64,000 nucleotides of DNA from Dehalococcoidia bacterium (GTDB lineage: Bacteria > Chloroflexota > Dehalococcoidia > Lucifugimonadales > UBA3495), in contig OZ247426.1 of the NCBI GenBank assembly GCA_965232835.1, forward strand, positions 924,974 to 988,973. The letters run 5' to 3'. The position numbers and the translations under genes were made by a program. The notes under the pieces are model-generated. The model saw only the letters and a program-made list of their open reading frames with translations, was not told the origin of the DNA and searched no databases. Shown piece by piece: positions 11,872-43,391 of this stretch (position 1 is its first letter; each line of letters opens with the position of its first letter).

Positions 11872-12285
11872 CTAGACTTCTGCCAGATCCTCAATGGCAA
11901 CGATGCCACCCTCGCGCGCCTCCATGCTGAGGCGGCTGCCCCAGAGCATTGCCATTCCCAACAGCGGGGGCCGTGTTTCGGTTTGGAGGATTCCTATTTC
12001 CCTGTGTCGGCCATTCCAAAGAACTGTTGCTCGGTAAAACCTGAACTCCCTGAATTCGCTATCAGCCAATTCAGCCGTCCCAAATCCCTCGGGAGTCAAC
12101 TGAAGTGATTCTACGGCCGACCTAGGTAAGGTGAGATGACCATCAAACCCGGTGTCCAGGATGAATTCAAAGTCGTGAAAGACTCCCAAGTAATTTGCAA
12201 CAGCCAGGACCACTCTTATTTCACCGGTGCGCAAGGGACCGGGAAGAGGATGAACGCGCCCTTCAATCATTCTTCGGCTCTGCAT
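11872..12285 (-). CDS. Retropepsin-like (clan AA) aspartic protease
   Basis: Single-domain retropepsin layout with the catalytic FILDTGFDGHLTLP (DTG) and a C-terminal LLGMAMLWG. An alternative start at ATG 12270 overlaps the upstream stop (ATGATTGA). Confidence 0.75.
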   Translation of the reverse strand: MQSRRMIEGRVHPLPGPLRTGEIRVVLAVANYLGVFHDFEFILDTGFDGHLTLPRSAVESLQLTPEGFGTAELADSEFREFRFYRATVLWNGRHREIGILQTETRPPLLGMAMLWGSRLSMEAREGGIVAIEDLAEV

Positions 12286-12589
12286 TCACGTCCTTAATGA
12301 ATGAGGTCGCATCATCATCAAAATGTAATCGTCCATACGTGGCTCGCCAGCCCATACGGGAAATTGGCTGGCCGTGAAACTCGATTGTCCATGTGCGGGC
12401 TTCCGGCTTCCGGCGCAACAACCTATCCACGGCTTTTCTCTCTACGGCGTCCACTTCGTAGTCCCCACTGTCCACATCGATTGCCACCATCTTTCCCTTG
12501 TCCTCGTCGACTAGTTTCCACACGACACTGGACCGATATAAGGCCTGACCGGCATCGGCAATTTCCGTTTCATTTCTTTCGATTGCCAT
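12263..12589 (-). CDS. Hypothetical protein, translationally coupled partner of the retropepsin-like protease
   Basis: A 108-aa ORF overlapping the protease start. The central KGKMVAIDVDSGDYEVD segment resembles small antitoxin-like beta domains, but I cannot assign a family. Confidence 0.5.
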   Translation of the reverse strand: MAIERNETEIADAGQALYRSSVVWKLVDEDKGKMVAIDVDSGDYEVDAVERKAVDRLLRRKPEARTWTIEFHGQPISRMGWRATYGRLHFDDDATSFIKDVNAEPKND

Positions 12590-12718
12590 AGCTTCCCCGC
12601 GCCTGCCCGCTGTTGAGATTGAATTGTATCACCGCGTCAATTCCGAGGTAGCAGGCGCCTTGACGAATCCTGTCTCCGGCATAGAATAACCGCTAGCCCT
12701 CGTGATGGTCAGTGATGA

Positions 12719-13978
12719 ATGCCAGATAATTCCGAAACCCTGCTGTTGAGTCCCTACCGCGTGCTCGACCTCACCGACGAGCGCGGCCTGCTCTGCGGCA
12801 AGATCCTGGGCGACCTCGGTGCGGATGTAATTCAGGTGGAGCCGCCGGGCGGTAGTAGCGCGCGGCACGTCGGGCCCTTCTACGCCGACGATCCGTCTCC
12901 CGAAAAAAGCCTGTATTGGTGGGCCTACTCCGGCAACAAGCGTGGCATCACCCTGGACGTCGCGCACCCCGACGGCAGAGCGCTGCTTGAGCGGTTGGCG
13001 TCCAAGGCCGATTTCGTGATCGAGTCTTCCGATCCCGGCTATCTCGATAGCGTAGGACTGGGGTACTCGCGTCTTTCCGAAATCAACCCGGGGCTGGTGA
13101 TGGTCTCGATAACCGCCTTCGGACAGGACGGTCCCTACGCCGGCTACCATGCCTCCGACATTACCGGGATGGCGATGGGTGGCTTCATGCACCTAACCGG
13201 GGATCCCGACCGAGCGCCGCTGCGGCCCAGTTTCCCGCACTTCTACCTGCACGGCTCGGCCGCTGGAGCAGCGGCCGCCATGCTGGCCCACACTCACCGG
13301 GCCCTCACTGGCGAGGGGCAGTTCGTTGGCGTCTCATGCCAACAGGCGGTGGCGCGGACGCTGGCACATGCCCCACAGATCTGGGACATCGAGGGCGCCA
13401 TCCTCCAGCGCATGGGCGTGTACCGGCAGACGTCGGGCGACAACCGGGTGCGCATCAACTGGCCCTGTGCCGACGGTTATGTCAACTACATGCTGCAGGG
13501 CGGCGGTGTTGCTCCCAGCACCCGCAATCTGTTCCAGTGGATGGAGGAGGACGGGATCGACGTTACCGACCTCCAGGCCTTCGAGTGGGAGACTATGGGC
13601 TACGGGCGTATCACGCCCGAAGTGATGGATACGGTAGTGGGTCCCATGGCCGAGTTTTTCCTCCGCCACACGCGCGAGGAGCTGACCCGCGGCAGCGTCG
13701 ATCGGCGCATCCTGCTCTTCCCCGTGGCCACCCCGTCGGACCTGCGGCAGCACCCTCAGCTGGAGGCTCGCGGATACTTCACCTCCATCGAGCACCCCGA
13801 CCTCGGAACGACCATCGACTATCCCGGCGCGTTCATCAAGGGAGGCGACGGCGCGCAGGTCGCCCCGCTTCGCCGCCGCGCTCCCAATGTGGGCGAGCAC
13901 AACCTCGAGATTTACGGCGGGGAATTGGGCCTGGCGCCCTCCGAAATAGAGTCCCTCAGGCGAGTGGGAGCCATCTGA
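12719..13978 (+). CDS. Family III CoA-transferase (CaiB/BaiF), A-type subunit
   Basis: YRVLDLTDERGLLCGKILGDLGADVIQVEPPGG, then LVMVSITAFGQDGPY and GMAMGGFMHLTG. The position aligned by eye to the catalytic Asp is Tyr (HFYLHG). Confidence 0.88.
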   Translation: MPDNSETLLLSPYRVLDLTDERGLLCGKILGDLGADVIQVEPPGGSSARHVGPFYADDPSPEKSLYWWAYSGNKRGITLDVAHPDGRALLERLASKADFVIESSDPGYLDSVGLGYSRLSEINPGLVMVSITAFGQDGPYAGYHASDITGMAMGGFMHLTGDPDRAPLRPSFPHFYLHGSAAGAAAAMLAHTHRALTGEGQFVGVSCQQAVARTLAHAPQIWDIEGAILQRMGVYRQTSGDNRVRINWPCADGYVNYMLQGGGVAPSTRNLFQWMEEDGIDVTDLQAFEWETMGYGRITPEVMDTVVGPMAEFFLRHTREELTRGSVDRRILLFPVATPSDLRQHPQLEARGYFTSIEHPDLGTTIDYPGAFIKGGDGAQVAPLRRRAPNVGEHNLEIYGGELGLAPSEIESLRRVGAI

Positions 13979-15195
13979 TGTCGACAAAGCCACTGGATGG
14001 AGTAAATGTACTGGACTTCTGCTGGGTCGCCGTGGGGCCCATGACCACGAAGTACCTGGGCGAATACGGCGCAACAGTTGTCCGGGTGGAGTCGGCCAAA
14101 CGCCCCGGCACCCTGCGGTCCGCCGCACCGTTCCCGGACGGCATAGCGGGCATCAACCGCAGCGCCTACTTTGCCAGCTACAACGCCAACAAGATGGGCA
14201 TCACCATCGACATGCGCCATCCCCGGGCACGGGACCTGATGCTTCGCCTCGCCGGATGGGCCAACATAGTGACCGAGAATTTCACTCCCGGAACCATGGA
14301 AAGCTGGGGCCTCGGGTTCAAGGAACTGAGCGAGATCAACCCCGCTCTTGTCATGTTCAGCGCATCAATGATGGGCAGGGGAGGGCCACTGGAGCGGCAG
14401 CCCGGATTCGGTCCTGTGCTGTCCTCACTGGTGGGCCTGACCAATGTCACGGGCTGGCCCGATCGCACTCCGGTCAACCCCTACGGCGCCTACACCGACT
14501 TCATCGTTCCCAAGTTCGCCGTGGCAGCCATCCTGGCCGCCCTCGATCGCAGCCGTCGGACCGGAGAGGGAATACACCTGGACCTATCGCAGCTGGAAAC
14601 GTCCATGCACTTCGTTTCGCCGCTGCTCCTGGACTACACGGCCAACGGGCGCGAGCAGGGCCGTCTAGGCAACCGCGATCATGGCGGCGCTCCCCACGGC
14701 GTCTACCCCTGCGCCGGGGTAGACCGCTGGCTGGCCATAGCCTGTTCATCAGATCACCACTGGCAGGGACTGCTCAAAGTGGCCGAACCTGACGGCGGGC
14801 CGCTGCATTCCGACCAGTTCGCCACCCTGCTGGGCCGTAAGGCCAACGAGGACGAGCTGGACCGCCTGGTAACCCAGTGGACGATCCAGCACGACCGACA
14901 CCAGCTGATGCAGGCCCTTCAGGAGGCTGGCGTTCCGTCAGGGGTGATCAACGACCCTCGGGACCTGTTCGAGGACCCGCAACTGCAGCACCGCAACCAC
15001 TTCCAATGGCTCGACCACCCCGAGATCGGCCCCTACGCCACCGACCGAAGCGAGTTCGAACTCTCGCTGACGCCAGGCGGCCTGGACACACCCGCTCCCC
15101 TCTTGGGCCAGCACACCGAACACTTCCTGCGGAAGATAATCGGCCTCAGCGAAGAGGAGTACGCCTCGCTGGAAAGCGACGGCGTACTGGAATAG
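13978..15195 (+). CDS. Family III CoA-transferase (CaiB/BaiF), B-type subunit
   Basis: The ATG overlaps the upstream stop (TGATG). It has LDGVNVLDFCWVAVGPMTTKYLGEYGATVVRVES and retains the Asp motif AYTDFIVPKFAVAAILAAL...TGEG. The 619-aa track ORF from 13336 is an artefactual upstream extension. Confidence 0.88.
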   Translation: MSTKPLDGVNVLDFCWVAVGPMTTKYLGEYGATVVRVESAKRPGTLRSAAPFPDGIAGINRSAYFASYNANKMGITIDMRHPRARDLMLRLAGWANIVTENFTPGTMESWGLGFKELSEINPALVMFSASMMGRGGPLERQPGFGPVLSSLVGLTNVTGWPDRTPVNPYGAYTDFIVPKFAVAAILAALDRSRRTGEGIHLDLSQLETSMHFVSPLLLDYTANGREQGRLGNRDHGGAPHGVYPCAGVDRWLAIACSSDHHWQGLLKVAEPDGGPLHSDQFATLLGRKANEDELDRLVTQWTIQHDRHQLMQALQEAGVPSGVINDPRDLFEDPQLQHRNHFQWLDHPEIGPYATDRSEFELSLTPGGLDTPAPLLGQHTEHFLRKIIGLSEEEYASLESDGVLE

Positions 15196-15207
15196 CTCCC
15201 GTAACCG

Positions 15208-16725
15208 TTACATCGTTTCCCAGTCGCACGACTGCTCGAATGCATGGGCGGCCCGGAGCACGGTTGCGTCATCGAACCTACGCCCGACAAGCATCAGCCC
15301 GATAGGCAGGCCCTCCGACGTCTTGCCGCACGGCACGCTGATGGCCGGGTGGCCCGACATGTCGAAGGGTGCCGTGTTGTGCAGCATGTCCCAGGCATGG
15401 TCAATTACTGCCTTGGGGTCGCCTCCGGCGTCGTTGCGATGGGCCGGCATCGGCGTGGTCGGCATCAGCAGCAGGTCGCACTGCGATAGCGCCTGGTCGT
15501 ATCCGGCCCGCATGTCGCGGCGCAGGTTCTGGGCCTTGGCATACATTACGCTGTTGTACTCCTCGGTCATGTAGTTGCCGATAATCAGCGTCAGCTTCAC
15601 CGTGGGCGGCAGGTCGTTGGCCTGCGCCCTGAGCCCCTGCCCCAACGCCTGCGCGAACCCGGGGCTGTACTGCCCTTCGAAGTGCCTGCCCGTCCCGCTC
15701 ATTTGCAACAGCGAGGCGGCGCCCTCTGCGATCAGTCCCCACGATATGGCGCCCGCTTTGGCGTGCCAGGGCACGGACAGATCTTCAACTGTCGCTCCCA
15801 GCTCGGCCAGCCGGTTGGCGGCCTGCCTGACCTTGGCATCGACCTCGGTGTGGGACTGCTCCAACCCGAAGCCCTCCGGTACCACTCCGATTCTCAGCCC
15901 ACTGGCGCCCGTGGCCAGCGCCCCGACGTAGTCCTGCATCACAACGTCCCCCTGCCTCGGATCCAGGGGGTCCTTTCCGGCTATGACCTGCAACAGCAGC
16001 GCCGCATCGGCGACGGTCCGGGTCATCGGCCCGGTGTGGTCGAAAGTATTGTCGATGCCGATGATCCCGGTGTACGGCACCAGGCCGTGGGTCGGCTTGT
16101 GCCCGACGATGCCGCAGAAGGACGCTGGGATGCGGATGGATCCCCCCTGGTCGCCCCCGATGGTCATGTCGATATCATCGTAGAACAGCGCCGCAGCCGA
16201 ACCTCCGGATGATCCGCCGGCCAGATGATCGGGGCTGTGGGGATTGAGCGTCGGTCCGAAGGCGCTTGTGTCGCCCGCTCCCGAAAATGCGAAGTTGTCG
16301 AGGTTGAGCAGAGAGTTGATCTCTGCCCCCTCGTCCAGAATCCGCGTCACGATGGTGGCATCGCTGTCGGCAACATAGTGCTCGAGGATGCGGGAGCCGC
16401 ACGTCAGCGGGAAACCCGAGACGCTGATGTTGTTTTTCAGCCCGATACGCTTTCCTGCCAGCAGTCCTCCCGTCGCTCCGCGAATGTAGCAGCGGCGCAG
16501 GATGGCGTTGTAGGGGTCATCCTCAGGACTGGGACGGGACCCAGGCTCGCGGTTGGGGTAACGCAGGGGCGGGCGTTGCTCCGGTAGTTGCGCCAGGTCG
16601 TCGAATGAGTCGAACACTCCGGGGATCAGCGCCTCGAACGCACCCATCTCGGCATCAGTCAGGTCGATGTTGTTGGCCTCGGCGAGTCGCTGCACATCCT
16701 GGGGTGTTGGTCTTCGAATAGTCAT
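15208..16725 (-). CDS. Amidase (amidase-signature family, GatA-like)
   Basis: The AS signature GGSSGGSAAA sits in a Gly/Ser-rich core with GGDQGGSIRIPASFCG. RBS GAGGTG. Confidence 0.92.
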   Translation of the reverse strand: MTIRRPTPQDVQRLAEANNIDLTDAEMGAFEALIPGVFDSFDDLAQLPEQRPPLRYPNREPGSRPSPEDDPYNAILRRCYIRGATGGLLAGKRIGLKNNISVSGFPLTCGSRILEHYVADSDATIVTRILDEGAEINSLLNLDNFAFSGAGDTSAFGPTLNPHSPDHLAGGSSGGSAAALFYDDIDMTIGGDQGGSIRIPASFCGIVGHKPTHGLVPYTGIIGIDNTFDHTGPMTRTVADAALLLQVIAGKDPLDPRQGDVVMQDYVGALATGASGLRIGVVPEGFGLEQSHTEVDAKVRQAANRLAELGATVEDLSVPWHAKAGAISWGLIAEGAASLLQMSGTGRHFEGQYSPGFAQALGQGLRAQANDLPPTVKLTLIIGNYMTEEYNSVMYAKAQNLRRDMRAGYDQALSQCDLLLMPTTPMPAHRNDAGGDPKAVIDHAWDMLHNTAPFDMSGHPAISVPCGKTSEGLPIGLMLVGRRFDDATVLRAAHAFEQSCDWETM

Positions 16726-16807
16726 TTCGCACCTCGTCTGGTAGATAGGGTTCTAATAGACCAGTCATTCATCCAGGTTAACCATGACCCACTGGCAAGC
16801 CTTCCGT

Positions 16808-18028
16808 TCAGTCGCTGGCGGCCGGCGCTGGCGTACGTTCCCTGCCAAAACTCAGCGTGGTCCCGGCGACCACCAGGGACAGGGGCGTGAAACAGGCTAT
16901 GAACATGGCAAGGAACAGGTTTCCGGTGGCCTCCTCCAGGAACCCGATGAACAGGGGCCCCAGGGCCTGTCCGGTTGAGATGAGCATCATCACGACGGAG
17001 AAAGCCACCGCCAGTTGCCGGGGCTGGATACCCCGCAGGTTGAATGGCACCGTGATCAGGATGGGGAAAAACGTCCAGGTCACCCCGTTGATGATAGACA
17101 TCACGTAGATCATCACTACCGACCCGGTAACGATCATGCCGACGAACGATCCCACCATAACCACGCCGAGGATCTGCAGGAACAAGCCCTCCTTGCGCCA
17201 GGTTGCGGCGTAGTAGCCGATGGCCAGGCCTCCGATGCCTCCCAGCACCACATCCAGGGCCAAGGCCAGGCCGCTGACGCGCAGGGAGATGTCATATTCC
17301 TGCAGCATCAGCGTGGGGAAGAAGGCCAGGAAAGCGGAAAAGGCCATGGTGGCGCCGCAGAAACCGCCTCCGCAGAGCCACAGGTCGCGATGGCTGAGGG
17401 CACTGCGAAGCAACGGCAGTAGTGGCTGAGATTCACTCCTGGAGAATTCCTCGGTCACGCGGTCGCGCCCCATCACCAGCCAGATTAGTGTCAGCGCAAC
17501 ATAGTAGAAGGCAAAAATGCGAAGCGTCCCCCGCCAGTCGTCCCCGAGAATTATGAGAATCACAGGCGACAGTGCCAGCCCTCCGCCCACCACCAGGCCG
17601 AAAAAGACGTTCGAAAGCCCGTTGACCAGCACTACTTCCCGGGGCGGAAACCACTGCCTCGTAAGGATCGCCCGCGCCGGCTGCTGGGCAATGGTGAAAA
17701 TCCCGAACAGCAAGCGGCCCAGCAGCAGCAAGGCAAACACCGGGGCCCAACCTTGCAGGAAAAGGCAAAGGGCGCAACCCACCAGCGTGATCGCCGTCAG
17801 CCACTTGGGAGACAGGCGCGACCCTAACCACGCGATCGGGATCGCCAGCAATATGGTGCTCCAGAAGGGCGCAGAGCCCAGCAGTCCCTGCTCCGATGGC
17901 GAAAGGTCGAGGCTCTCAGCGATGGATGGCAGCAGGATGCCCAGCGTGTTGATGACCATCTGCGCGGATACGTTGGACATCAGGTAGAGGCATATCAACA
18001 CCCAGCGATAGGTCGGGAAACTAGACAT
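16808..18028 (-). CDS. MFS transporter
   Basis: About 12 predicted TM segments in a two-halves layout. ATG 18028 lies directly after the track's TTG at 18031. Confidence 0.85.
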   Translation of the reverse strand: MSSFPTYRWVLICLYLMSNVSAQMVINTLGILLPSIAESLDLSPSEQGLLGSAPFWSTILLAIPIAWLGSRLSPKWLTAITLVGCALCLFLQGWAPVFALLLLGRLLFGIFTIAQQPARAILTRQWFPPREVVLVNGLSNVFFGLVVGGGLALSPVILIILGDDWRGTLRIFAFYYVALTLIWLVMGRDRVTEEFSRSESQPLLPLLRSALSHRDLWLCGGGFCGATMAFSAFLAFFPTLMLQEYDISLRVSGLALALDVVLGGIGGLAIGYYAATWRKEGLFLQILGVVMVGSFVGMIVTGSVVMIYVMSIINGVTWTFFPILITVPFNLRGIQPRQLAVAFSVVMMLISTGQALGPLFIGFLEEATGNLFLAMFIACFTPLSLVVAGTTLSFGRERTPAPAASD

Positions 18029-18203
18029 CAATTACCCTTGGAGCAATGTGCACAACGGAACCCGTTCTGTTCTTGCCGTCGTGGAATAGGCTTGGAAATT
18101 TGGCATATCATAGTCCTTCGGGATACCATCCCGCCAATCGGAAATCGCAAGAGTCCCAAAATCAAGTGCGTCTCCCTTCATGGGAGGCGAGGTGAGAGTG
18201 AAT

Positions 18204-19202
18204 ATGGAGCGGATAGGTGTCGGCTTCTCCGGGGGGATGTCTCCCCCGGACATCGTCGAGTGCGTGAAACTGGCCGAGGAGTTGGGCTACGAGTCGGCTT
18301 GGGTGGCCGAGGGGCACGGCGGCGACCAGTTCGCCATCCTGACGGCCTGCGCGGTCGCCACGAATCGGATCAAGCTTGGTACCAGCATCACCAGCGTATT
18401 CGTGCGCACCGCGCCAACCATCGCCATGGCAGCGGCCACGGTCGACCACTTCTCCAACGGGCGCTTCATCCTCGGCCTCGGCAGCAGCCACAAGGTGCAG
18501 GTTGAGCCGGAGCACGGGCTGGAGTTCATCCGCCCCATCGAAAGAATGCGGGAATGCACCGACATCGTGCGGCAGATCCTGCGCGACGGCGACGTCAACT
18601 TCCATGGCGAGGTCTACAACATCGAGCGCTTTGACCTGTGGTTCGAGCCCGTCCGCCGTCAGATGCCCATCTATTACGCCGCGGTTAGGCCCCGGATGCT
18701 GGAAATCTGTGGCGAGGTATCCGACGGGGTCATCCTGACCTGGTGCACCCTCGACCACGCGGCGACCGCCGTTGATCACATCCGGATTGGTGCGGAGCGG
18801 GCCGGGCGAAACCCCGAGGACGTGGACGTCACCACCCTGATCGCCTGTGCCGTCTCTGACGACCGGGACTCGGCGAGGGACGAACTGAGGCGCTACATCG
18901 CGTCCTACGTCTGGCGATTCCCGCGCTACCGCCGGCTGGTGGAAGAGGCGGGCTTCGCTGAGGAAGTCGAGGCCGTGGCCCAAGCATGGCGGGAAGGACG
19001 CATCGAGGACGCCCTGAACCTCGCGCCTGCCGGTCTCGTCGACACCGTGGCTCTCGCAGGCTCTCCGGAGGAGTGCCGCGAGCGTCTGCAGCTGTACCGG
19101 GACGCGGGAATCAGTATGCCGATCATTTCTCCCCGCGCCTCGGGTCCCGCCGCCAGGGAACGGGCCATGGCCGTTATCAGAGCCTGCGCCCCCGGGCAAT
19201 AA
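18204..19202 (+). CDS. LLM-class (luciferase-like) flavin/F420-dependent oxidoreductase
   Basis: LAEELGYESAWVAEGHGGDQFAILTACA...RFILGLGSSH. ATG 18204 is preceded by GAGGTGAGAG. Confidence 0.85.
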   Translation: MERIGVGFSGGMSPPDIVECVKLAEELGYESAWVAEGHGGDQFAILTACAVATNRIKLGTSITSVFVRTAPTIAMAAATVDHFSNGRFILGLGSSHKVQVEPEHGLEFIRPIERMRECTDIVRQILRDGDVNFHGEVYNIERFDLWFEPVRRQMPIYYAAVRPRMLEICGEVSDGVILTWCTLDHAATAVDHIRIGAERAGRNPEDVDVTTLIACAVSDDRDSARDELRRYIASYVWRFPRYRRLVEEAGFAEEVEAVAQAWREGRIEDALNLAPAGLVDTVALAGSPEECRERLQLYRDAGISMPIISPRASGPAARERAMAVIRACAPGQ

Positions 19203-19222
19203 CATTCCTTTTCCCGGACTGT

Positions 19223-19246
19223 CCCCTCCTCCAGCGGGGGAGGGTC
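19223..19246. repeat. GGGAGAGGG-family hairpin repeat (degenerate copy)
   Basis: CCCCTCCTCC-agc-GGGGGAGGG, between the LLM gene and the RraA-like gene. Confidence 0.55.
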
Positions 19247-19293
19247 AGAGCGGGGAAGAAATTTCCAGAACTAAGTACCAACGGAGGCCCTCA

Positions 19294-20019
19294 ATGACCA
19301 CGGTGCCTGAAATCACCGCCGATACGCTGCAAACCCTCAAGGAAATCCCCACACAGACACTGATCGACGGCCTCTGGGTTATGGGATGGCCCATGAGCTT
19401 CATCCACGGCGCCAAGCCGCTACAGCCTGGGCAGCACATGGCCGGCCGGGCCGTTACCCTACGGTTCGTGCCACACCGTCCCGATCTCGCATCAGACAAG
19501 CCCAAGGGCGCCGACTCCGCGGAGTACGTGGCCTTCGAGCTCTGCGGCCCCGAAAACGTATTGGTCATCGACGCAATGGGCTGGGAATACAGCTCCATCG
19601 GCGGCGACATCAAGTTCATGCGCCTGATGCAGCGCATGGTGGGCGGACTGGTGACCGACGGCGCGGTGCGCGACAGCAACGCGCTCAAAGAGTACGGCTT
19701 CCCGGTCTACGCCGCCAACACCACCGCCAAGCAAGGGCCCGCCGAGTTCTGGCCCTGGCAGGTGAACGACGCCGTGCAGTGCGGCGGCGTCCTGGTCCGC
19801 CCCGGCGACGCCATCGTCGGCGACGACGACGGCGCGGTGGTGGTTCCCGCCGCCGCGGTCGACGAGGTGATACGCATAGCTCACGAGCGTGAGGATGTAG
19901 AAGCGGTGATCAAGGCCCAGTTGGAGGTGGAGCAGTGCAGCCCCGGCAAGTACTACCCCTTCAACGACCGCACATGGCAACTCTACGAAGAAAAGACCGG
20001 CAGAAAACGGGGAGGGTGA
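19294..20019 (+). CDS. RraA-family protein / 4-hydroxy-4-methyl-2-oxoglutarate aldolase-like
   Basis: GGDIKFMRLMQRMVGGLVTDGAVRDSNALKEYGFPVYAANTTAKQG and GDAIVGDDDGAVVVP. RBS GGAGG. Confidence 0.85.
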   Translation: MTTVPEITADTLQTLKEIPTQTLIDGLWVMGWPMSFIHGAKPLQPGQHMAGRAVTLRFVPHRPDLASDKPKGADSAEYVAFELCGPENVLVIDAMGWEYSSIGGDIKFMRLMQRMVGGLVTDGAVRDSNALKEYGFPVYAANTTAKQGPAEFWPWQVNDAVQCGGVLVRPGDAIVGDDDGAVVVPAAAVDEVIRIAHEREDVEAVIKAQLEVEQCSPGKYYPFNDRTWQLYEEKTGRKRGG

Positions 20020-20148
20020 GGTCCCACTCAGGAATCCAGCAAGCACACCATTTCCCGGCGGAAAGGAGAGCTCCAGGAAAAATCGAAAGTCGGCGCAGAT
20101 TGACTTGCTCTCGAGTATTCACAATTCCTTGAAATCGTCCGATTAGAC

Positions 20149-20856
20149 TTGTGGTGCGAGAAGCCGGGAGGAGGTACAGGGAGTTTGGCAGAAACTGGCA
20201 CGGCAGGGAGCGTTGGCAATTCGTCGCCCTTGGGGGCAGTGCTGAAGGTCGTCAATTCGTCTTACTTCTTCTGGACAGTTTTGGCCGTCCCTTCAATCCC
20301 CCTGATTTTGCAGCTCGTTGAAGGGAGCCAAGGATCCAGGGGCAGATCACCGGCCCACGAAATCGTGGAACTTTCCGGTGTAGTCGCGACGCTGCTTCTG
20401 TTGGCTGCACTGGCGCTGTCGCCGCTGCAGACGATTTTTCCAAGGTCGGGCGTGCTGGCCTGGTTTGTCAAACGCCGTCGTTATCTCGGGGTCGCGGCTT
20501 TTTCCTACTCGGTTGTTCATGTGGTGTTCTATTTTATCGACCTTGGCAGCCTGCGGGAGGTGCTGGCGGAGTTCTCAACCCCGCTCATCCTCACCGGATG
20601 GGTTGCCCTGTTCGTGTTCGTTCCGCTGGCAATTACGTCAAACGCGGTCATGGTGAGGGCCATGGGTTGGCGCAGGTGGAAGACGGTCCAGCGCGGCGCT
20701 TACGTGGCAGCGGTACTGGTGTTGGCGCACTGGCTCATTGTCGAACCGGAACCCGGACCGATGATCTTTTTCGGTGTAGTGGCAGCGCTGGAAGCGTACC
20801 GGCTCTGGCGATACCTCGCGAACCGGAACGCCAATGCGAGTCCTGTCCGTTCCTGA
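20149..20856 (+). CDS. Ferric-reductase-like / MsrQ (YedZ)-like heme-binding membrane protein; start uncertain
   Basis: TM helices carry conserved His residues (AFSYSVVHVVFYFID, VLVLAHWLIV) and RRWKTVQRGAY. The track start is a TTG; GTG 20239 is an alternative. No MsrP partner is present. Confidence 0.5.
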   Translation: MWCEKPGGGTGSLAETGTAGSVGNSSPLGAVLKVVNSSYFFWTVLAVPSIPLILQLVEGSQGSRGRSPAHEIVELSGVVATLLLLAALALSPLQTIFPRSGVLAWFVKRRRYLGVAAFSYSVVHVVFYFIDLGSLREVLAEFSTPLILTGWVALFVFVPLAITSNAVMVRAMGWRRWKTVQRGAYVAAVLVLAHWLIVEPEPGPMIFFGVVAALEAYRLWRYLANRNANASPVRS

Positions 20857-20890
20857 AATGTCCCCTGCAATTCAACGGGAGCTGAAGAAG

Positions 20891-20920
20891 AATGGGCCCC
20901 TTCGCAATGAGGGGCCCATT
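20891..20920. terminator. Hairpin between convergent genes (putative bidirectional terminator)
   Basis: An 11-bp perfect stem AATGGGCCCCT / AGGGGCCCATT with an 8-nt loop. No clear U-tract follows. Confidence 0.45.
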
Positions 20921-20949
20921 GATATCTACAACACTGCGCTTGCCTGGAA

Positions 20950-22579: not shown

Positions 22580-22588
22580 GTGAAAGTC

Positions 22589-38550: not shown

Positions 38551-39351
38551 TTAGCGCGCGGAGGGGAAGTTCGGGTCACGTTTCTCTCGGACGGAATCGA
38601 GGCCCTCGCGGACATCGGGGCCCATGAAGTTGAGCATCTCGAGGGCCAGCGAATAGTCGAAGGCGGTGTGCTCGGCCATGCGCAGCCATTGGTTCAGCGA
38701 ACGCTTGGTGTATCGGATGGCCGGCTGGGGGCCGTCGGCGAGCTTCCGGGCGACGGTCATGGACCGCTCCATCAGCTCGTCGTGGGGCACGCAGAGGCTG
38801 ACGAGGCCCAAGCGTTCCGCCTCGGTGCCGTCCAGGAACTCGCAGGTCAGCAGGTAGTACTTGGCCTTGGCCATGCCCATCAGCAGGGGCCAGATGACGG
38901 CGGCATGGTCGCCAGCCGCCACGCCGAGGCGTACATGCCCGTCGGTGAAGCGCGCGCGTTCCGAGGCGATGGAGATGTCGGCCAGCAGCGCCACCGCCAG
39001 GCCTGCGCCCACGGCCACGCCGTTGATGGCGGAGATTACCGGCTTGTCCAGGTTGATCATGTTGTGAACGATGTCGCGGGCCTCCTGCATGGTGCCCGCA
39101 ATCACTTCAGCATTGCCGATGGACTGCTCGATCATGTCGAAGTCGCCGCCGGCGGAGAAGGCGTTGCCCGCGCCGGTGATGACGGTCACCCGCACCTCCG
39201 GATCCTTACCCAGGTCCAGCCATACCCGCGAGAGTTCGTTGTGCAGCGTGAACCCGGTGGCGTTGAAAACCTCGGGACGGTTCATGGTCAGGAGGGCGAT
39301 GCCGTCCTTCTTTTCGATGAGCAGGTCCTGGTAGCCGCTGTAATCAACCAT
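38551..39351 (-). CDS. Enoyl-CoA hydratase/isomerase (crotonase family)
   Basis: [48 protein letters not shown]. Confidence 0.92.
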
Positions 39352-39367
39352 TGATGGCAGTCCTTTT

Positions 39368-39446
39368 TGTCTGAATCGGGATTTGAGGATTCACCGGATG
39401 GTAAGAACTTGAAAATCATAGAATCCGGCAAATCAGGATTCAGACA
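39368..39446. repeat. 79-nt intergenic element with TGTCTGAATC / GATTCAGACA terminal inverted repeats (second copy)
   Basis: It starts TGTCTGAATCGGGATTT and ends ATCAGGATTCAGACA. Compare 8589-8681. Confidence 0.6.
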
Positions 39447-39455
39447 ATAGATTTA

Positions 39456-40688
39456 TCAGTAGAGTGAGCCGTCTTCTTTGAGGGCATCGATGCGCGATTC
39501 GGGCATACCGAGTATCTCGCTGAACACGTAGTCGTTGTCCTCGCCGACGTACCTGTAATCGCCGAATTCCATGGGCGTTTCGGATAGCCGCGCCGGGGTG
39601 GTCCAGGCCAGGCTGTCGCGCTTCTCCCATTCCCACGCAGGCGTGCCGCGCTCGGCGACGTAGTAGGGCGTGGGCCGGTAGAAGTCCCGAGCCTTCAGGT
39701 GTTCGCTGGAGTACAGGTCGTCGCCCTGGGAAACGATGCTGGCTGGGACACCCTCGGCCTGCATGCCTGCCATCACGTCATCGGCGGTACGCTGGGCAGT
39801 CCACACGCCGATGAGGGCGTCGAGGCGGTCCTGGTTGGCGATGCGGCTTTCCATCGTGCTGAACTCGGGCTCGCCGACCCAGTCGGGATTGCCCGTGGCC
39901 CGGCGGAAACCGTCCCACTCCTCGTCGGTTCGCACCGCGATGGCACACCAGCGGTCCTCGCCCTGGCACTGATACACGCCGTGGGGAGCGCTGTCGGTGC
40001 CGCGATTGGCGATGCGCTCCGGCATCCGCCCGTTGACCTGGTAGTCCAGTATGGCCGGGCCGGCGGTGAGGGCGCCGGACTTGAAAATTGAGGACTCCAT
40101 GGTCGTCGGTTCGCCCGTCATTCGGCGCCGCATCAGGGCTCCGATGATGGCCGACGGCTGGAACACTCCGGTGTGGTAGTCGGAATAGGACGTGTTGATT
40201 GCAGAGGGAGGTTCACCCTCATTGCCGGACATCAGCGAGACGCCGCCCATGTGCTGCACCAGGATACCGTATGACTTGTAGGTGTAGTAGGGGCCGATTC
40301 CTCCCAGCCCGGTCTGCCACATCAGGATTATGTCGGGACGGAGTTGCCGGACTGCCGGAAAGTCGATGCCCCATCGGCCGAGGATGTTGCGGCGGAAGTT
40401 GGTCATGAATACGTCGCTGACCTTGACCAGCTCCTGGAAGACCTCCAGTCCGCCGGGGGTGCGCACATCGATGGACACCCGCTTCTTGGCTCGCTGGAAG
40501 TCGGGTTGGCCCGCGCCACGGGACCACGCAGGGATGAAGGACATCTCATCGAGCACCTTGTTGGTCTCGACCTTGATCACCTCGGCGCCCATCGAGGCCA
40601 GGATGCGTCCGGTGAGGGGCAACGCGACGTATGGGCCCAGTTCCAGCACACGAATTCCCTGGAGGGCTTTCCTTCCGTTTTCGACCAC
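39456..40688 (-). CDS. Family III CoA-transferase (CaiB/BaiF), B-type subunit (paralog of 13978-15195)
   Basis: LQGIRVLELGPYVALPLTGRILASMGAEVIKVE. It retains the Asp motif SYSDYHTGVFQPSAIIGAL. The GTG start immediately follows the upstream TAG. Confidence 0.85.
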   Translation of the reverse strand: MVENGRKALQGIRVLELGPYVALPLTGRILASMGAEVIKVETNKVLDEMSFIPAWSRGAGQPDFQRAKKRVSIDVRTPGGLEVFQELVKVSDVFMTNFRRNILGRWGIDFPAVRQLRPDIILMWQTGLGGIGPYYTYKSYGILVQHMGGVSLMSGNEGEPPSAINTSYSDYHTGVFQPSAIIGALMRRRMTGEPTTMESSIFKSGALTAGPAILDYQVNGRMPERIANRGTDSAPHGVYQCQGEDRWCAIAVRTDEEWDGFRRATGNPDWVGEPEFSTMESRIANQDRLDALIGVWTAQRTADDVMAGMQAEGVPASIVSQGDDLYSSEHLKARDFYRPTPYYVAERGTPAWEWEKRDSLAWTTPARLSETPMEFGDYRYVGEDNDYVFSEILGMPESRIDALKEDGSLY

Positions 40689-41924
40689 CTAGATGACCCC
40701 CTCGCTCCTCAGTGATGCCAATTCTGCCTCAGTAAGCCCCAGCTCGCCCGCGTAAATGGCCTCGTTGTCCTGCCCCAGATCGGGCGCTGCCTGCGTACGC
40801 GGCGAGACCTCCTCGCTGTCGAACACGCCCTGCGGGTACTGCACCGTGCCCGTCTCCGGGTGGTCAATGCCGAACCAGAAATTGCTCTGCTCAAGCTGCG
40901 GGTCGGCCAGCAAATCGGAGACAGTGTTGACCGGCAGGACCACCAGGTTGCGGCGCTGGCCCTCGTGGAACAGGTACTCGCTGGTGTACCGCGTGGTGAA
41001 GTCAATGACCATGGCAGTGATGATGTCGTTGTATGGCGCTCGGTCCTGGTTGCCCCCCCGGTAGGCCTCGTTCAGGACCTCCTCGTTGCCGGTCACCTCG
41101 TAGATCCACTGGGCCAGGGTGTCCCACTCGCGGGGAGTGATGATCCCGGCTGAAATCCAGCCATCGGCGCTGGGGTAGGCTCCCAGGGGAATGACCAGGG
41201 TGGAGGTTGCGCCGACGCGGGTGACGTTGTCGCCCAGCAGCATCCAGGCCAGGGCAGGATGGGCATCGGTGTAGTAGGTGATCAACGCCTCCTGCAGTGA
41301 AACGTCGATGTGCTGGCCCTCGCCGCCGTTGAAGTCGCGGTGGTACAGGGCGCCGAGAATGGATGCGGCGGCGTACTGCGCCCCGGGGAAGTGGGACTGG
41401 TCGTTGCCCTGCCGCATGGGGGGCCCGTCTGGCTCCCCGGTGATCTGCATGAATCCGCTAGACGCCAGGGCGATGAGGTCGTTGGACTTGTAGTCCTTCC
41501 ACGGACCGGTCTGGCCGAAGGGCGTCACCGATGCCATCACGATGCCTGGATTTACCTGCCGCAGGCTCTCGAATCCGAGGCCGAGGGAGTCCAGGTAGCC
41601 TACGGGGTAACTCTCAACGATCACGTCGGAATCCGTGACAAGCCGCCGGAACAAGTCCCTACCTCGCTCCGTCCGGATATCCAGCGTAATGGAGCGCTTG
41701 TTGGTGTTATAAAAGAGGAAATACAGGCTCCGGTCCGGCCCTTCTTCGTCGCCGGCAAAGGGCCCCCGTGAGCGGGACGGATCACCGCCGGGCGGCTCAA
41801 CGCGCACCACGTCGGCGCCGTAGTCGGCCAGCAACTTGCCGCAGAAAACGGCCTCCGGACCGCTGAGGTCCAGCACCCGGTACGGTGGGAAGAGCCGGCC
41901 TTCGTCCGGCATTTGTAGGGGCAT
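40689..41924 (-). CDS. Family III CoA-transferase (CaiB/BaiF), A-type subunit (paralog of 12719-13978)
   Basis: YRVLDLSGPEAVFCGKLLADYGADVVRVEPPGG, IVMASVTPFGQTGPW, ASSGFMQITG. The position aligned to the catalytic Asp is Phe (SHFPGA). Confidence 0.88.
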   Translation of the reverse strand: MPLQMPDEGRLFPPYRVLDLSGPEAVFCGKLLADYGADVVRVEPPGGDPSRSRGPFAGDEEGPDRSLYFLFYNTNKRSITLDIRTERGRDLFRRLVTDSDVIVESYPVGYLDSLGLGFESLRQVNPGIVMASVTPFGQTGPWKDYKSNDLIALASSGFMQITGEPDGPPMRQGNDQSHFPGAQYAAASILGALYHRDFNGGEGQHIDVSLQEALITYYTDAHPALAWMLLGDNVTRVGATSTLVIPLGAYPSADGWISAGIITPREWDTLAQWIYEVTGNEEVLNEAYRGGNQDRAPYNDIITAMVIDFTTRYTSEYLFHEGQRRNLVVLPVNTVSDLLADPQLEQSNFWFGIDHPETGTVQYPQGVFDSEEVSPRTQAAPDLGQDNEAIYAGELGLTEAELASLRSEGVI

Positions 41925-42125
41925 AATGCAGCTGCGTTCCTTCTTTCATGTGCCATCTGGCCGCGATACGGAGCCAGAGCAGCCTTGGGATTGTAGGAAG
42001 GCAAGGTAATGGCGTCAAGTTGTGCGTCTCTTTCCGAGGACCGTTCGGGAAGCTGCACAGTCATCGAGCACTGTTATAATGCGGCTTCCGATTTATCGAC
42101 ACTTGACCACTGATCGGGGCTGCAC

Positions 42126-43391
42126 TTGACCTCTTACCTGGCCGCCACCAGAGACCGCTTCCTTCTCGGGCTGAAATACGCCGACTACCGCACCATGTGG
42201 ATCGCCACCACCTGCTCCGGGGCGGCGGCCTGGGCCCTCATCGTCATCCGGGGCTATCTGGCCTGGGAACTCACGGAGGCGTCCCTGTGGGTTGGGATCA
42301 TCACCTTTGCGGCGATGTTTCCCCGGGTGTTCTCGACGCCCTTCGTCGGATACCTCGCCGACCGCTTTGACCGACAGACTCTGCTGAGGGGGATATTCGC
42401 GCTCAACCTGGGCCACAACATCCTGCTTGGCTTCCTGGTGATGAACGATCTGGCAGGGCCGTGGGCGCTGACCTTCCTGGCCCTGTTCAACGGCACCCTC
42501 CGCGCTGGGCAGATGACTGTGTCCCAGGCCCTGATTCCCAACCTGGTGCCCCGTGAGCATCTTCTGAACGCGTTGGCGCTGAACCAGGCCACGCAGCAGG
42601 GCTCCAGGCTGGTCGGGCCCGCTCTGATACTCCCATTGCTGGCTTTCGTCAGCCTGGACGCCGCGTTCTGGTTCTGCAGCGTCTTTTACCTGATCGGGTT
42701 CATCCAGATGTCCCGCGTGAAGACCCGGTCGACAGGCAAGATCGACGAGTCCCGCACCTTCTGGAGCAACCTGATAGCCGGGTTTGAATACATCTACACC
42801 CGACCGCGACTGCTCTTCATGGTCCTGCTGGTGGTGGCCCACTGCGCCTTCGTGATGTCCTACGAATCGATTCTGCCGGCCATTTCCGAAGTTAAACTGG
42901 GCGCCGGGTCGGTCGGTGTGACTTACCTGATGGGCGGGGTGGGGGCTGGCGCGCTGATTTCGTCGGTCTTTCTGGCCGGAATTCGTGGGCCATCGGCGAG
43001 GGGCAAGATTTTCCTCCTGTTCGGCGTGCTCAGTGCCGCGGCGCCCATTCTGCTGGCCGCGTCCACCATGAGAGAGGTCTCGATCATAGCCACCGTGCTC
43101 ATCGGCGCGACGCAGGCCGGCTTCATGACCATCAGCCACACTGTAATCCAGATGCTGACCGACGACTCGGTGCGAGGGCGCGTCGCGGGCGTATACTCGG
43201 TGCACGTGGGAGGCAGCATGGCCATTACCAATATGATCGGGGCCGTCCTTTCCGACGTGTTTACCGCTCCGTCGGTGATGCTGGTGGGAGGACTGCTGTT
43301 CCTGGGCGCCATGGTCGTGAGCTTCGGCAGCGGCACGCTGCGCCGTGTCTACTTCCCGGTGCCCGCCGTCCCTGCCGCGGCCTCTGCCTGA
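42126..43391 (+). CDS. MFS transporter
   Basis: About 12 TM segments, with the loop motif GYLADRFDRQ after TM2. TTG start per the track; the exact start is uncertain. Confidence 0.85.
   Translation: MTSYLAATRDRFLLGLKYADYRTMWIATTCSGAAAWALIVIRGYLAWELTEASLWVGIITFAAMFPRVFSTPFVGYLADRFDRQTLLRGIFALNLGHNILLGFLVMNDLAGPWALTFLALFNGTLRAGQMTVSQALIPNLVPREHLLNALALNQATQQGSRLVGPALILPLLAFVSLDAAFWFCSVFYLIGFIQMSRVKTRSTGKIDESRTFWSNLIAGFEYIYTRPRLLFMVLLVVAHCAFVMSYESILPAISEVKLGAGSVGVTYLMGGVGAGALISSVFLAGIRGPSARGKIFLLFGVLSAAAPILLAASTMREVSIIATVLIGATQAGFMTISHTVIQMLTDDSVRGRVAGVYSVHVGGSMAITNMIGAVLSDVFTAPSVMLVGGLLFLGAMVVSFGSGTLRRVYFPVPAVPAAASA

What the first reader, a model, noticed from the sequence alone, without database searches (positions are those of the whole stretch)
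12719..15195. Duplicated two-gene module of divergent family-III CoA-transferases in which only one partner keeps the catalytic Asp
- **Arrangement.** The window holds four CaiB/BaiF-type genes in two abutting pairs: 12719-13978 with 13978-15195 (start and stop overlap as TGATG), and 41924-40689 with 40688-39456 (a GTG directly after a TAG).
- **Two types.** The first gene of each pair is mutually similar (A-type: YRVLDL...GADV..VEPPGG). The second genes are mutually similar (B-type). So an A-B module has been duplicated, rather than single genes.
- **Catalytic residue (alignment by eye).** I anchored on the conserved helix ..(I/L)(L/I)(A/G)AL.. and the following TG.G motif. I used the known catalytic Asp of formyl-CoA transferase (LGDSNTG) and CaiB (TADYFSG) as reference.
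  - Both B-types keep the Asp: AYTDFIVP and SYSDYHTG.
  - Both A-types have an aromatic residue there: HFYLHG and SHFPGA.
- **Interpretation.** Family III enzymes are normally interlocked homodimers. A known heteromeric exception, benzylsuccinate CoA-transferase BbsEF, is encoded by adjacent genes. The pattern here suggests obligate A/B heteromers with one catalytic and one non-catalytic (or mechanistically different) subunit.
Basis: partly seen in the sequence, partly recalled or inferred. Interest (0 to 1): 0.55.

Follow-up and report, generated by a model that had tools for sequence, protein, structure and literature searches.

The report
Two BbsEF-type two-subunit CoA-transferases
The window carries two copies of a known kind of two-subunit CoA-transferase, of the benzylsuccinate (BbsEF) type.

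Summary
The window holds exactly four family III CoA-transferase genes (PF02515), in two abutting pairs. At the catalytic Asp column (Frc/CaiB D169), A1 has Tyr176 and A2 has His178. B1 keeps Asp174 and B2 keeps Asp170.

A-types match chain A of the solved benzylsuccinate CoA-transferase BbsEF (PDB 9fn0). B-types match chain B, whose D178 carries the CoA adduct in entry 9fol.

- **Clades.** In 80 genome loci and 12 plasmid loci, Asp-less A sequences form one clade (bootstrap 98). Their Asp-bearing partners form another (bootstrap 91).
- **Pairing.** A and B are almost always adjacent, and they co-evolve (mirror-tree r = 0.90).
- **Fusions.** A and B are often fused as one A–B protein of about 810-850 aa. 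A fused homologue models with pTM 0.94.
- **Second characterised member.** The phthalate CoA-transferase pair of Aromatoleum EbN1 shows the same pattern.

The host resembles a SAR202/Dehalococcoidia bacterium. There is no toluene or phthalate context, so the substrates are unknown. Pair 2 sits with an MFS transporter and an enoyl-CoA hydratase. Pair 1 sits with an MFS transporter, a luciferase-like oxidoreductase and an RraA-like protein.

Verdict: new members of a known kind, of modest interest.

The parts
12719..13978 (+). A1: BbsE-like, Asp-less subunit of pair 1 (419 aa). Tyr176 (codon 13244-13246) sits in the catalytic Asp column.
   Evidence: PF02515 E 3e-72. Best PDB hit 9fn0_A, E 2.4e-66. 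Column checked. Falls in the A clade.
13978..15195 (+). B1: BbsF-like catalytic subunit of pair 1 (405 aa). Asp174 (codon 14497-14499) is the predicted nucleophile. Its start overlaps the A1 stop (TGATG).
   Evidence: PF02515 E 2e-99. Best PDB hit 9fn0_B, E 1.9e-88. Column checked. Falls in the B clade.
40689..41924 (-). A2: BbsE-like, Asp-less subunit of pair 2 (411 aa). His178 (codon 41391-41393) sits in the Asp column.
   Evidence: PF02515 E 3e-85. Best PDB hit 9fn0_A, E 2.5e-58.. Orthologues L060-62, L065, L068-70.
39456..40688 (-). B2: divergent BbsF-like catalytic subunit of pair 2 (410 aa, GTG start directly after the A2 TAG). Asp170 (codon 40179-40181).
   Evidence: PF02515 E 1.6e-78. 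Best PDB hit 9fn0_B, E 4.9e-45.. Included in the B clade.
38551..39351 (-). Enoyl-CoA hydratase/isomerase family gene 104 nt downstream of B2. It is probably the next step acting on the CoA ester made by A2B2.
   Evidence: ECH_1 E 2.5e-51. NCBIfam PRK07327 above its cutoff. An ECH-sized ORF follows most pair-2 orthologues, and ECH is the commonest downstream family.
42126..43391 (+). MFS transporter divergent from pair 2. It is a candidate importer of the carboxylate substrate.
   Evidence: MFS_3/MFS_1. MFS is the commonest upstream neighbour of the modules, 9 of 68.
16808..18031 (-). MFS transporter convergent with pair 1.
   Evidence: MFS_1 E 9e-38. Conserved next to A1B1 orthologues at 92% and 72% identity.
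18180..19202 (+). Luciferase-like (LLM, F420/FMN class) oxidoreductase conserved with pair 1.
   Evidence: Bac_luciferase E 4e-80. LLM F420 families match but below their cutoffs. Conserved in L083-L085.
19294..20019 (+). RraA-like aldolase/decarboxylase family protein conserved with pair 1.
   Evidence: RraA-like E 7e-31. Conserved in L083-L085.
15208..16725 (-). Amidase convergent with B1. It is found only in close relatives, so it is loosely associated.
   Evidence: Amidase E 6e-100. PRK07235 above its cutoff. Present in L083 but absent in L084 and L085.
12660..12687 (+). Sigma-70-like promoter motif (TTGACG-16-TAGAAT) 32 nt upstream of the A1 start. Weak evidence only.
   Evidence: One site was found where about 0.8 is expected by chance.
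41990..42018 (-). Sigma-70-like promoter motif (TTGACG-17-TACAAT) 66 nt upstream of the A2 start. Weak evidence only.
   Evidence: One site was found where about 0.9 is expected by chance.

Best explanation
Each pair encodes a BbsEF-type heteromeric family III CoA-transferase.

**Roles of the subunits.** The downstream B subunit (BbsF-like) carries the nucleophilic Asp: B1 D174 and B2 D170. By the established family III mechanism, this Asp attacks a donor acyl-CoA to form a mixed anhydride. It then forms an aspartyl-CoA thioester, which is transferred to the acceptor carboxylate. The upstream A subunit (BbsE-like) has the same fold but an aromatic or imidazole residue in place of the Asp. It serves as the obligatory interlocking partner, so each A-B protomer has one working active site.

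**Expression.** The two genes are translationally coupled.

**Place in metabolism.** The modules are generic carboxylate-activation units plugged into different catabolic clusters.
- Pair 2 probably works with a divergent MFS importer and a downstream enoyl-CoA hydratase.
- Pair 1 probably works with an MFS transporter, a luciferase-like oxidoreductase and an RraA-like lyase.

**What is shown and what is inferred.**
- Shown: gene structure, homology, residue pattern, clade structure, co-occurrence, co-evolution and fusions.
- Inferred: heteromer formation by the window proteins, succinyl-CoA as donor (by analogy with BbsEF and the phthalate enzyme), and the pathway roles.
- Unknown: the substrates.
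For: - **Best PDB matches.** A1 and A2 match 9fn0_A. B1 and B2 match 9fn0_B. [quoted passage not shown]
- **Experimental anchor.** The title of 9fol reads 'D178-CoA adduct'. D178 is the YTD Asp of chain B in the alignment.
- **Asp column.** B has D in 85 of 85 sequences and A in 0 of 86. With extra references the Asp-less set of 89 is exactly one NJ clade. Bootstrap support is A 98, B 91 and A+B 64, with SUGCT, 4ed9, Frc and CaiB as outgroups.
- **Wider sample.** Among 150 representatives clustered at 50% identity, B domains have D in 95 of 95 complete cases. A domains have an acidic residue in only 8 of 151.
- **Adjacency and fusion.** About 74 of 80 A-seeded loci have B adjacent or fused, and three more have B nearby. 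The reverse test gives 8 of 8.
- **Co-evolution.** Mirror-tree r = 0.90.
- **A is not decaying.** Mean within-clade distance is 0.608 for A and 0.606 for B. A has many clade-specific invariant positions.
- **Fusions are real.** They have true linkers that replace the C-terminal helix of A. They include RefSeq-annotated isolates.
- **Model of a fused homologue.** pLDDT 93.7 and pTM 0.94. Its halves superpose on 9fn0 chains B/D (TM 0.93) and A/C (TM 0.85).
- **Second characterised heteromer.** The Aromatoleum EbN1 phthalate cluster pair shows Tyr upstream and Asp downstream. The literature describes it as a two-subunit enzyme homologous to BbsEF (10.1101/2022.07.29.502009, PMC11659651).
- **Context.**
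Against: - No biochemical or structural data exist for the window proteins themselves.
- A/B, A/A and B/B complexes could not be modelled with these tools.
- B2 is divergent: 29% identical to 9fn0_B, with a best-hit margin over 4ed9 of only about 11 bits.
- The outgroup sample for the trees is small, at 8 sequences. The trees are NJ, not ML.
- About 5% of A domains in the wide sample carry Asp or Glu in the column, so 'non-catalytic' is not universal for the clade.
- A keeps the N-terminal family motifs (VLD, GADV..VE, NKR). It may therefore still bind CoA, which means 'inert' is not established.
- The neighbouring genes give only weak hints about substrates.
Confidence: 0.8

Rival explanations
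1. The Asp-less A subunit is not merely a scaffold. It either contributes residues to a composite site or keeps a remodelled second pocket that binds a CoA ester or acid, or uses another nucleophile. On this reading the heteromer has two functionally different sites rather than one live and one dead site.
For: - A is as constrained as B: within-clade distances are 0.608 and 0.606.
- A has many clade-specific invariant residues and keeps the N-terminal family motifs.
- There is a reciprocal pattern at the Frc Y139-E140 columns. A keeps the acidic residue (D in 84 of 89) but has lost the Tyr. B keeps Tyr/Phe but has an almost invariant Gly (83 of 84).
- A few A domains have regained Asp or Glu in the column.
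Against: - No conserved alternative acidic residue lies near the Asp column in A.
- The only adduct reported in the PDB titles is on D178 of the B-type chain.
- The residue in the A column varies (Y, H, F, W, A, M...), as expected for a position that has lost a chemical role.
Confidence: 0.12
2. A and B form separate homodimers with different jobs, and their adjacency reflects a shared pathway rather than a complex. For example, B would be the transferase and A a CoA-ester-binding or isomerase-like protein.
For: Family III enzymes are normally homodimers (established knowledge, and the PDB entries listed). Adjacency alone does not prove a complex.
Against: - The closest solved relative contains both chain types in one entry named BbsEF.
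- Repeated independent A-B fusions with short linkers exist.
- The fused model has pTM 0.94.
- Co-evolution is strong, r = 0.90.
- Start and stop codons overlap or abut.
- Non-B-clade relatives stand alone, whereas B-clade genes always have an A partner.
Confidence: 0.05
3. The pairs are genuine benzylsuccinate CoA-transferases (or phthalate CoA-transferases) of an anaerobic aromatic degradation pathway, as automatic annotation suggests.
For: - JGI names a 79%-identical homologue of A1 'benzylsuccinate CoA-transferase BbsE subunit'.
- NCBI names the Variovorax fused protein 'BbsF'.
- The best PDB hit is BbsEF.
Against: - Identity to BbsEF chains is only 29-41%, and to the EbN1 phthalate pair 31-41%.
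- No bss or bbs genes (acyl-CoA dehydrogenase, Zn-ribbon thiolase, BbsCD-type dehydrogenase pair adjacent to the transferase genes) and no UbiD/UbiX lie near either pair.
- Neighbours of the modules across genomes are very diverse.
- The host is SAR202/Dehalococcoidia-like.
Confidence: 0.02

Closest known systems
[quoted passage not shown]
   Same: - It has two adjacent genes in the order E then F.
- The A-types are the best match to chain A and the B-types to chain B.
- The residue pattern is the same: chain A has Tyr and chain B has Asp178 in the catalytic column.
- The fold is family III.
   Different: - Identity is only 34-36% for A and 29-41% for B.
- There is no toluene-pathway context, so the substrate is almost certainly different.
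- The host is an uncultured Dehalococcoidia/SAR202-like bacterium, not one of the cultured toluene degraders from which BbsEF is known.
Succinyl-CoA:o-phthalate CoA-transferase (PhtSa/PhtSb, SptAB) of Aromatoleum/Azoarcus/Thauera
   Same: - It is a two-subunit family III enzyme encoded by overlapping genes.
- The EbN1 upstream subunit falls in the A clade (Tyr) and the downstream subunit in the B clade (Asp).
- A1 is 40% and B1 is 41% identical to these subunits.
   Different: - That enzyme is linked to a UbiD/UbiX phthaloyl-CoA decarboxylase.
- No such genes lie near the window pairs.
Fused A-B family III proteins (about 800-880 aa, two PF02515 domains), including possibly the DMSP CoA-transferase/lyase DddD
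   Same: - The domain order and residue pattern are the same: Asp-less N-domain and Asp-bearing C-domain.
- L019, a fused Dehalococcoidia locus, is among the nearest neighbours of A1.
- DddD is described as having two CaiB domains (PMC7174347). Some SAR202 CaiB-type proteins have DddD as their best Swiss-Prot hit (PMC5395668).
   Different: - In the window the two domains are separate genes.
- Whether DddD belongs to the A-B clades was not tested, because no DddD sequence was available. My recollection that only its C-terminal Asp is catalytic is from memory, not from a tool.
Homodimeric family III CoA-transferases (Frc/YfdW, CaiB, YfdE, SUGCT)
   Same: - They share the Pfam family, the fold and the catalytic Asp position of the B-types.
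   Different: - They are single genes with two identical active sites.
- In the plasmid sample, relatives outside the B clade stand alone.
BbsCD, a heterotetrameric dehydrogenase with inactive pseudoenzyme subunits (cited in PMC10818641, ref. 26)
   Same: The concept is the same: a paralogous pair in which one subunit has lost its catalytic residues but remains an obligatory partner.
   Different: It belongs to an unrelated protein family (short-chain dehydrogenases).

Membership tests
Family III CoA-transferases (Pfam PF02515, CaiB/BaiF/Frc) | Full-length match to PF02515 above the gathering score | tested here: met
   All four proteins score 244-334 bits against a cutoff of 23.3.
Family III CoA-transferases (Pfam PF02515, CaiB/BaiF/Frc) | Catalytic Asp at the Frc/CaiB D169 position | tested here: met
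   Met for B1 (D174) and B2 (D170). Not met for A1 (Y176) or A2 (H178).
Family III CoA-transferases (Pfam PF02515, CaiB/BaiF/Frc) | Interlocked dimer fold | tested here: inconclusive
   No multimer modelling was possible. A fused homologue, not a window protein, models with pTM 0.94. Its halves superpose on 9fn0 chains at TM 0.85-0.93.
BbsEF-type heteromeric family III CoA-transferases | Two adjacent, co-oriented genes with the E-like gene first and the F-like gene second | tested here: met
   TGATG overlap in pair 1 and TAG-GTG abutment in pair 2.
BbsEF-type heteromeric family III CoA-transferases | Each subunit is most similar to the corresponding chain of solved BbsEF | tested here: met
   A1 and A2 match 9fn0_A at E 2e-66 and 2.5e-58, against 4e-25 and 4e-32 for chain B. 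B1 and B2 match 9fn0_B at 2e-88 and 5e-45. B1 matches chain A only at 5.5e-28, and chain A does not appear in B2's hit list.
BbsEF-type heteromeric family III CoA-transferases | Placement in the Asp-less (E-like) and Asp-bearing (F-like) clades | tested here: met
   NJ tree of 110 taxa: A clade bootstrap 98 and B clade 91. The window proteins fall inside these clades.
BbsEF-type heteromeric family III CoA-transferases | Catalytic Asp only in the F-like subunit | tested here: met
   The 9fol title reads 'D178-CoA adduct', and D178 is the chain B YTD Asp.
BbsEF-type heteromeric family III CoA-transferases | Physical alpha2-beta2 (or alpha-beta) complex | not testable with these tools
   Indirect support only: fusions, co-evolution and adjacency.
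Benzylsuccinate CoA-transferase proper (toluene pathway, EC 2.8.3.15) | Located in a bbs beta-oxidation operon (acyl-CoA dehydrogenase, hydratase, BbsCD, Zn-ribbon thiolase) in a genome with bss | tested here: not met
   The neighbours are amidase, MFS, LLM and RraA-like for pair 1, and ECH, MFS and aminotransferase for pair 2. The rest of the genome is not available.
Benzylsuccinate CoA-transferase proper (toluene pathway, EC 2.8.3.15) | Activity with (R)-benzylsuccinate and succinyl-CoA | not testable with these tools
   Identity to the BbsEF chains is only 29-41%.
[quoted passage not shown] | Linked to UbiD/UbiX phthaloyl-CoA decarboxylase genes | tested here: not met
   No UbiD or UbiX lies near either pair. 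Compare the EbN1 cluster.
DddD-like fused tandem family III proteins | Two CaiB-type domains in one polypeptide | tested here: not met
   The window has separate genes. Relatives are fused. Homology of DddD to the A/B clades was not tested.

The most novel reading that the evidence does not exclude
The Asp-less A subunit or domain is not a passive scaffold. A and B appear to have partitioned ancestral active-site residues.
- A keeps the acidic residue at the Frc E140 column, which B has replaced by a near-invariant Gly.
- B keeps the Tyr139 and Asp169 equivalents and has a near-invariant N...PHG.Y loop where Frc has its glycine loop.

Each A-B unit would then have one catalytic site plus one remodelled, conserved second pocket with a binding or gating role. 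This asymmetric design, more often fused than split in the sample taken here, would be a major and largely uncharacterised carboxylate-activation device. It would operate in SAR202 and other degraders of complex organic matter, on substrates unrelated to toluene or phthalate.
Probability: 0.15. Interest if true: 0.55.

Novelty: new member of a known kind. Interest (0 to 1): 0.3.

Why it matters
- **Annotation.** These genes are currently labelled either 'CaiB-like' or, misleadingly, 'BbsE/BbsF benzylsuccinate CoA-transferase'. They are better described as BbsEF-type heteromeric CoA-transferases of unknown substrate. The A gene should not be counted as an independent enzyme.
- **SAR202 biology.** The large CaiB/BaiF expansion has been read as many separate transferases for recalcitrant organic matter (PMC5395668). 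If many of them are A/B pairs, the number of distinct activities is overestimated. The pairs, or their fusions, are the units to express.
- **A practical rule.** The survey gives a simple test. An Asp-less family III gene (Tyr, His, Phe or Trp in the column) predicts an Asp-bearing partner next to it or fused to it.
- **Limits.** The design principle itself is already documented by the BbsEF structures, so the finding is not a new mechanism.

Tried and rejected
- **Literature on the BbsEF structure.** I found no paper describing the BbsEF structure or the BbsE Asp loss in the held library. Leutwein & Heider 2001 (PMC95319) is not held. I therefore cannot say whether the clade-wide Asp pattern has been published. 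I rely on the PDB sequences and entry titles.
- **DddD.** No DddD sequence or residue-level statement could be obtained. NCBIfam returned no DddD family for the four window proteins. The link stays a lead.
- **Wasted search.** The paper search was too loose and gave nothing useful.
- **Exact look-up of A2.** The look-up of encoding contigs with A2 found nothing on record. I took the pair-2 context from loci L060-L070 instead.
- **Bootstrap error.** The first bootstrap run had invalid distances because of an uncapped Kimura correction. I repeated it with a cap and report only the second run.
- **Column error.** The first read of the Asp column in the hmmalign output was off by one. I corrected it.
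- **Artefact check on a fusion.** I considered that fusions such as L019 might be frameshift artefacts of long-read MAGs. I rejected this because the junction has a real 20-30 aa linker replacing the last helix of A, and because fused CDSs exist in RefSeq isolates.
- **Recent tandem duplication.** I rejected this because A1-A2 are only 39% identical and each pair has its own orthologues.
- **Promoter and terminator scans.** These gave one promoter-like site per pair, which equals chance expectation.


Full report
**1. What is in the window**

ORF listing confirms four genes at the stated coordinates:

| Gene | Coordinates | Strand | Length |
|---|---|---|---|
| A1 | 12719-13978 | + | 419 aa |
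| B1 | 13978-15195 | + | 405 aa |
| A2 | 41924-40689 | - | 411 aa |
| B2 | 40688-39456 | - | 410 aa (GTG start) |

- The A1 stop and B1 start overlap as TGATG. The B2 GTG follows the A2 TAG directly. Both B starts have a purine-rich stretch a few bases upstream.
- All four proteins are full-length PF02515 (family III CoA-transferase) members. None reaches the cutoff of any NCBIfam equivalog.
- A profile scan of all window ORFs finds no fifth member.
- The window is 61% G+C. The closest homologues come from Dehalococcoidia and SAR202 MAGs.

**2. The catalytic column**

I aligned the four proteins with E. coli Frc and CaiB, taken from NC_000913.3. The catalytic Asp169 of both is established by mutant and intermediate structures listed. 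I also included both chains of PDB 9fn0. The result:

| Has Asp | Lacks Asp |
|---|---|
| B1 D174 | A1 Y176 |
| B2 D170 | A2 H178 |
| 9fn0_B | 9fn0_A (Tyr) |

HMMER pairwise alignments to SUGCT and 9fn0 and two independent profile alignments give the same register. The only corrections are that A2 has His in the column, and that B1 and B2 are not convincingly 'mutually similar' in pairwise terms (28% identity, no better than B1-A2).

**3. What the pairs are**

- Against all PDB sequences, A1 and A2 hit chain A of 9fn0 best (E 2.4e-66 and 2.5e-58). B1 and B2 hit chain B best (1.9e-88 and 4.9e-45). Cross-hits are tens of orders of magnitude weaker.
[quoted passage not shown] It names 9fol 'D178-CoA adduct'. 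Counting along the chain B alignment, D178 is the YTD Asp that aligns with B1 D174 and B2 D170. Chain A has Ala at position 178 and Tyr in the catalytic column.
- JGI annotation already calls an A1 homologue 'BbsE subunit'.

**4. How general the pattern is**

*Scan seeded on the A type.* A scan of one genome per GTDB species with an A-type alignment returned 80 loci from Dehalococcoidia, NC10, Binatia, Burkholderiales, Tectimicrobiota, Myxococcota, Acidimicrobiia and others.
- In about 74 loci the A gene is immediately followed by, or fused with, a B gene. In three more a B gene lies nearby: one gene away in L038, and upstream in L046 and L056. The rest are contig ends, plus one locus with no B gene within 4 kb (L079).
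- At the Asp column, 85 of 85 B units have Asp and 0 of 86 A units do. The A residues are Y 42, H 12, F 11, W 6, A 5, M 3, R 2, E 2, and L, G and P once each.
- After adding the EbN1 phthalate pair and Variovorax proteins, the 89 Asp-less sequences form exactly one NJ clade. All partners form another.
- With SUGCT, 4ed9, Frc, CaiB and four neighbouring family III genes as outgroups, bootstrap support is 98 for A, 91 for B and 64 for A+B as sisters.
- Distances among A proteins correlate with distances among their partners: r = 0.90, against a maximum of 0.15 in 300 permutations.
- A is as conserved as B (0.608 against 0.606). It has its own invariant positions, so it is not a decaying gene.

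*Wider sample.* A profile search of 1.84 billion representatives gave 150 diverse A-type hits. Of these, 95 are proteins of at least 700 aa, and 97 have the A-B domain order. B domains have Asp in 95 of 95 complete cases. A domains have Asp or Glu in 8 of 151. The ranking favours fused proteins, because they collect score from two domains.

*Reverse test, seeded on B1.* I searched PLSDB plasmids with B1 and sampled 12 loci.
- Eight hits fall in the B clade.
- Seven of these have an A-clade partner adjacent or fused, one of them in B-then-A order.
- One, on Rhodococcus opacus pLP414, has its A gene about 9 kb away across a transposase.
- The four hits outside the B clade are stand-alone genes with Asp.

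**5. Fusions**

- In 24 of the 80 loci (25 ORFs), A and B are one ORF of about 770-860 aa, at many separate positions in the tree.
- The junction is a real 20-30 aa linker that replaces the last helix of A.
- Fused CDSs are annotated in RefSeq isolates: Variovorax, Bosea and Mycolicibacterium.
- More than 120 clusters of fused homologues of the Variovorax protein exist.
- An AlphaFold2 model of that protein has mean pLDDT 93.7 and pTM 0.94. Its C-half superposes on 9fn0 chains B/D (TM 0.93) and its N-half on chains A/C (TM 0.85-0.86).
- Fusion of two proteins in some lineages is classical evidence that they interact where they are separate.

**6. Other characterised members**

The Aromatoleum aromaticum EbN1 plasmid cluster with UbiD/UbiX decarboxylase genes contains two overlapping CoA-transferase genes. 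The upstream one falls in the A clade (Tyr) and the downstream one in the B clade (Asp). The literature describes this enzyme type as a two-subunit succinyl-CoA:phthalate CoA-transferase homologous to BbsEF (10.1101/2022.07.29.502009, PMC11659651).

**7. Likely function here**

Neither pair sits in a toluene or phthalate context.

- *Pair 2.* It is followed after 104 nt by an enoyl-CoA hydratase family gene and preceded by a divergent MFS transporter and a class III aminotransferase. Most of its orthologues have an ECH-sized ORF downstream. ECH and MFS are the commonest downstream and upstream families across the modules.
- *Pair 1.* It keeps an MFS transporter, a luciferase-like oxidoreductase and an RraA-like protein across orthologues down to 72% identity. 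The amidase is present only in close relatives.
- *Across genomes.* Neighbours of the module are very diverse: ECH, MFS, UbiD, SDR, amidase, dehydratases. The module therefore behaves as a general carboxylate-activation unit.

My best reading is import of an organic acid, CoA transfer at the B-subunit Asp, then processing of the CoA ester. The donor is probably succinyl-CoA, by analogy. The substrates remain unknown.

**8. Comparison with what is known, and novelty**

- This is the BbsEF design, now structurally documented. The window adds two divergent members in a SAR202-like genome.
- The survey results may or may not be published. These are the single Asp-less clade, strict pairing, co-evolution and frequent fusion. 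I found no paper on them in the held library.
- SAR202 genomes are known for a large CaiB/BaiF expansion, some members of which resemble DddD (PMC5395668). DddD has two CaiB domains (PMC7174347). Whether DddD belongs to the A-B fused clade could not be tested.

**9. Verdict**

- Novelty: new member of a known kind.
- Interest is modest, at 0.3. The value lies in correct annotation and in treating A/B pairs as single enzymes when studying SAR202 carboxylate metabolism.

Noticed in passing
window 11872-12285 (-) and 12263-12589 (-): A 137-aa retropepsin-like (clan AA, DTG motif) aspartic protease homologue matches TIGR03698 at E 8e-13, below its cutoff. It overlaps a 108-aa upstream ORF that has no family match. 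The pair lies just upstream of A1 and is conserved there in L083.
   Followed up: partly
window 35824-36234 (-) and 36231-36539 (-): A PIN-domain toxin gene has an overlapping 102-aa partner with no family match. This looks like a VapBC-like toxin-antitoxin pair.
   Followed up: no
window 39352-39455: The 104-nt AT-rich spacer between the B2 stop and the hydratase start contains repeated GAATCC...GATTC-like motifs. It could be an operator or an internal promoter.
   Followed up: no
alignment columns at Frc Y139-E140 (A1 S146-D147; B1 F144-G145): There is a reciprocal residue pattern between the clades. A keeps an acidic residue at the Frc E140 column (D in 84 of 89) but has Ser or Asn in the window and reference sequences where Frc has Tyr139. 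B has Tyr or Phe there in those sequences, followed by a near-invariant Gly (83 of 84). B also has a near-invariant N...PHG.Y.C loop where Frc has its GGGGQ loop, while the A loop is variable.
   Followed up: partly
L055 191-2509 and L071 3956-6481; representatives P0246, P0272, P0298, P0335, P0344, P0365, P0388: A minority of A domains, about 5%, have Glu or Asp in the catalytic column. L055 and L071 are fused A-B proteins followed by a third, Frc-like CoA-transferase gene.
   Followed up: partly
L091 2047-4134 and L097 1318-4134 (Novosphingobium and Croceicoccus plasmids): These fused proteins have a truncated A domain of about 270 aa and a full B domain. In L097 the next gene belongs to the 2-hydroxyacyl-CoA dehydratase family; L091 has no annotation.
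   Followed up: no
L100 (Rhodococcus opacus pLP414) 13149-24263: This is a Bbs-like cluster: B-type transferase, frameshifted hydratase pseudogene, Zn-ribbon protein, thiolase and two SDRs. Its A-type gene is displaced about 9 kb onto the other strand, beyond a transposase.
   Followed up: yes
L087 (Variovorax sp. SRS16 plasmid 3) 3980-9819: One operon holds a fused A-B protein (847 aa), a hydratase, a second separate A/B pair and a thiolase. Fused and split forms therefore coexist side by side.
   Followed up: partly
L090 (Rhodococcus sp. DMU1 plasmid) 2947-5432; representatives P0267 and P0362: A few modules have the reverse order, with B upstream of A or a B-A fusion.
   Followed up: no
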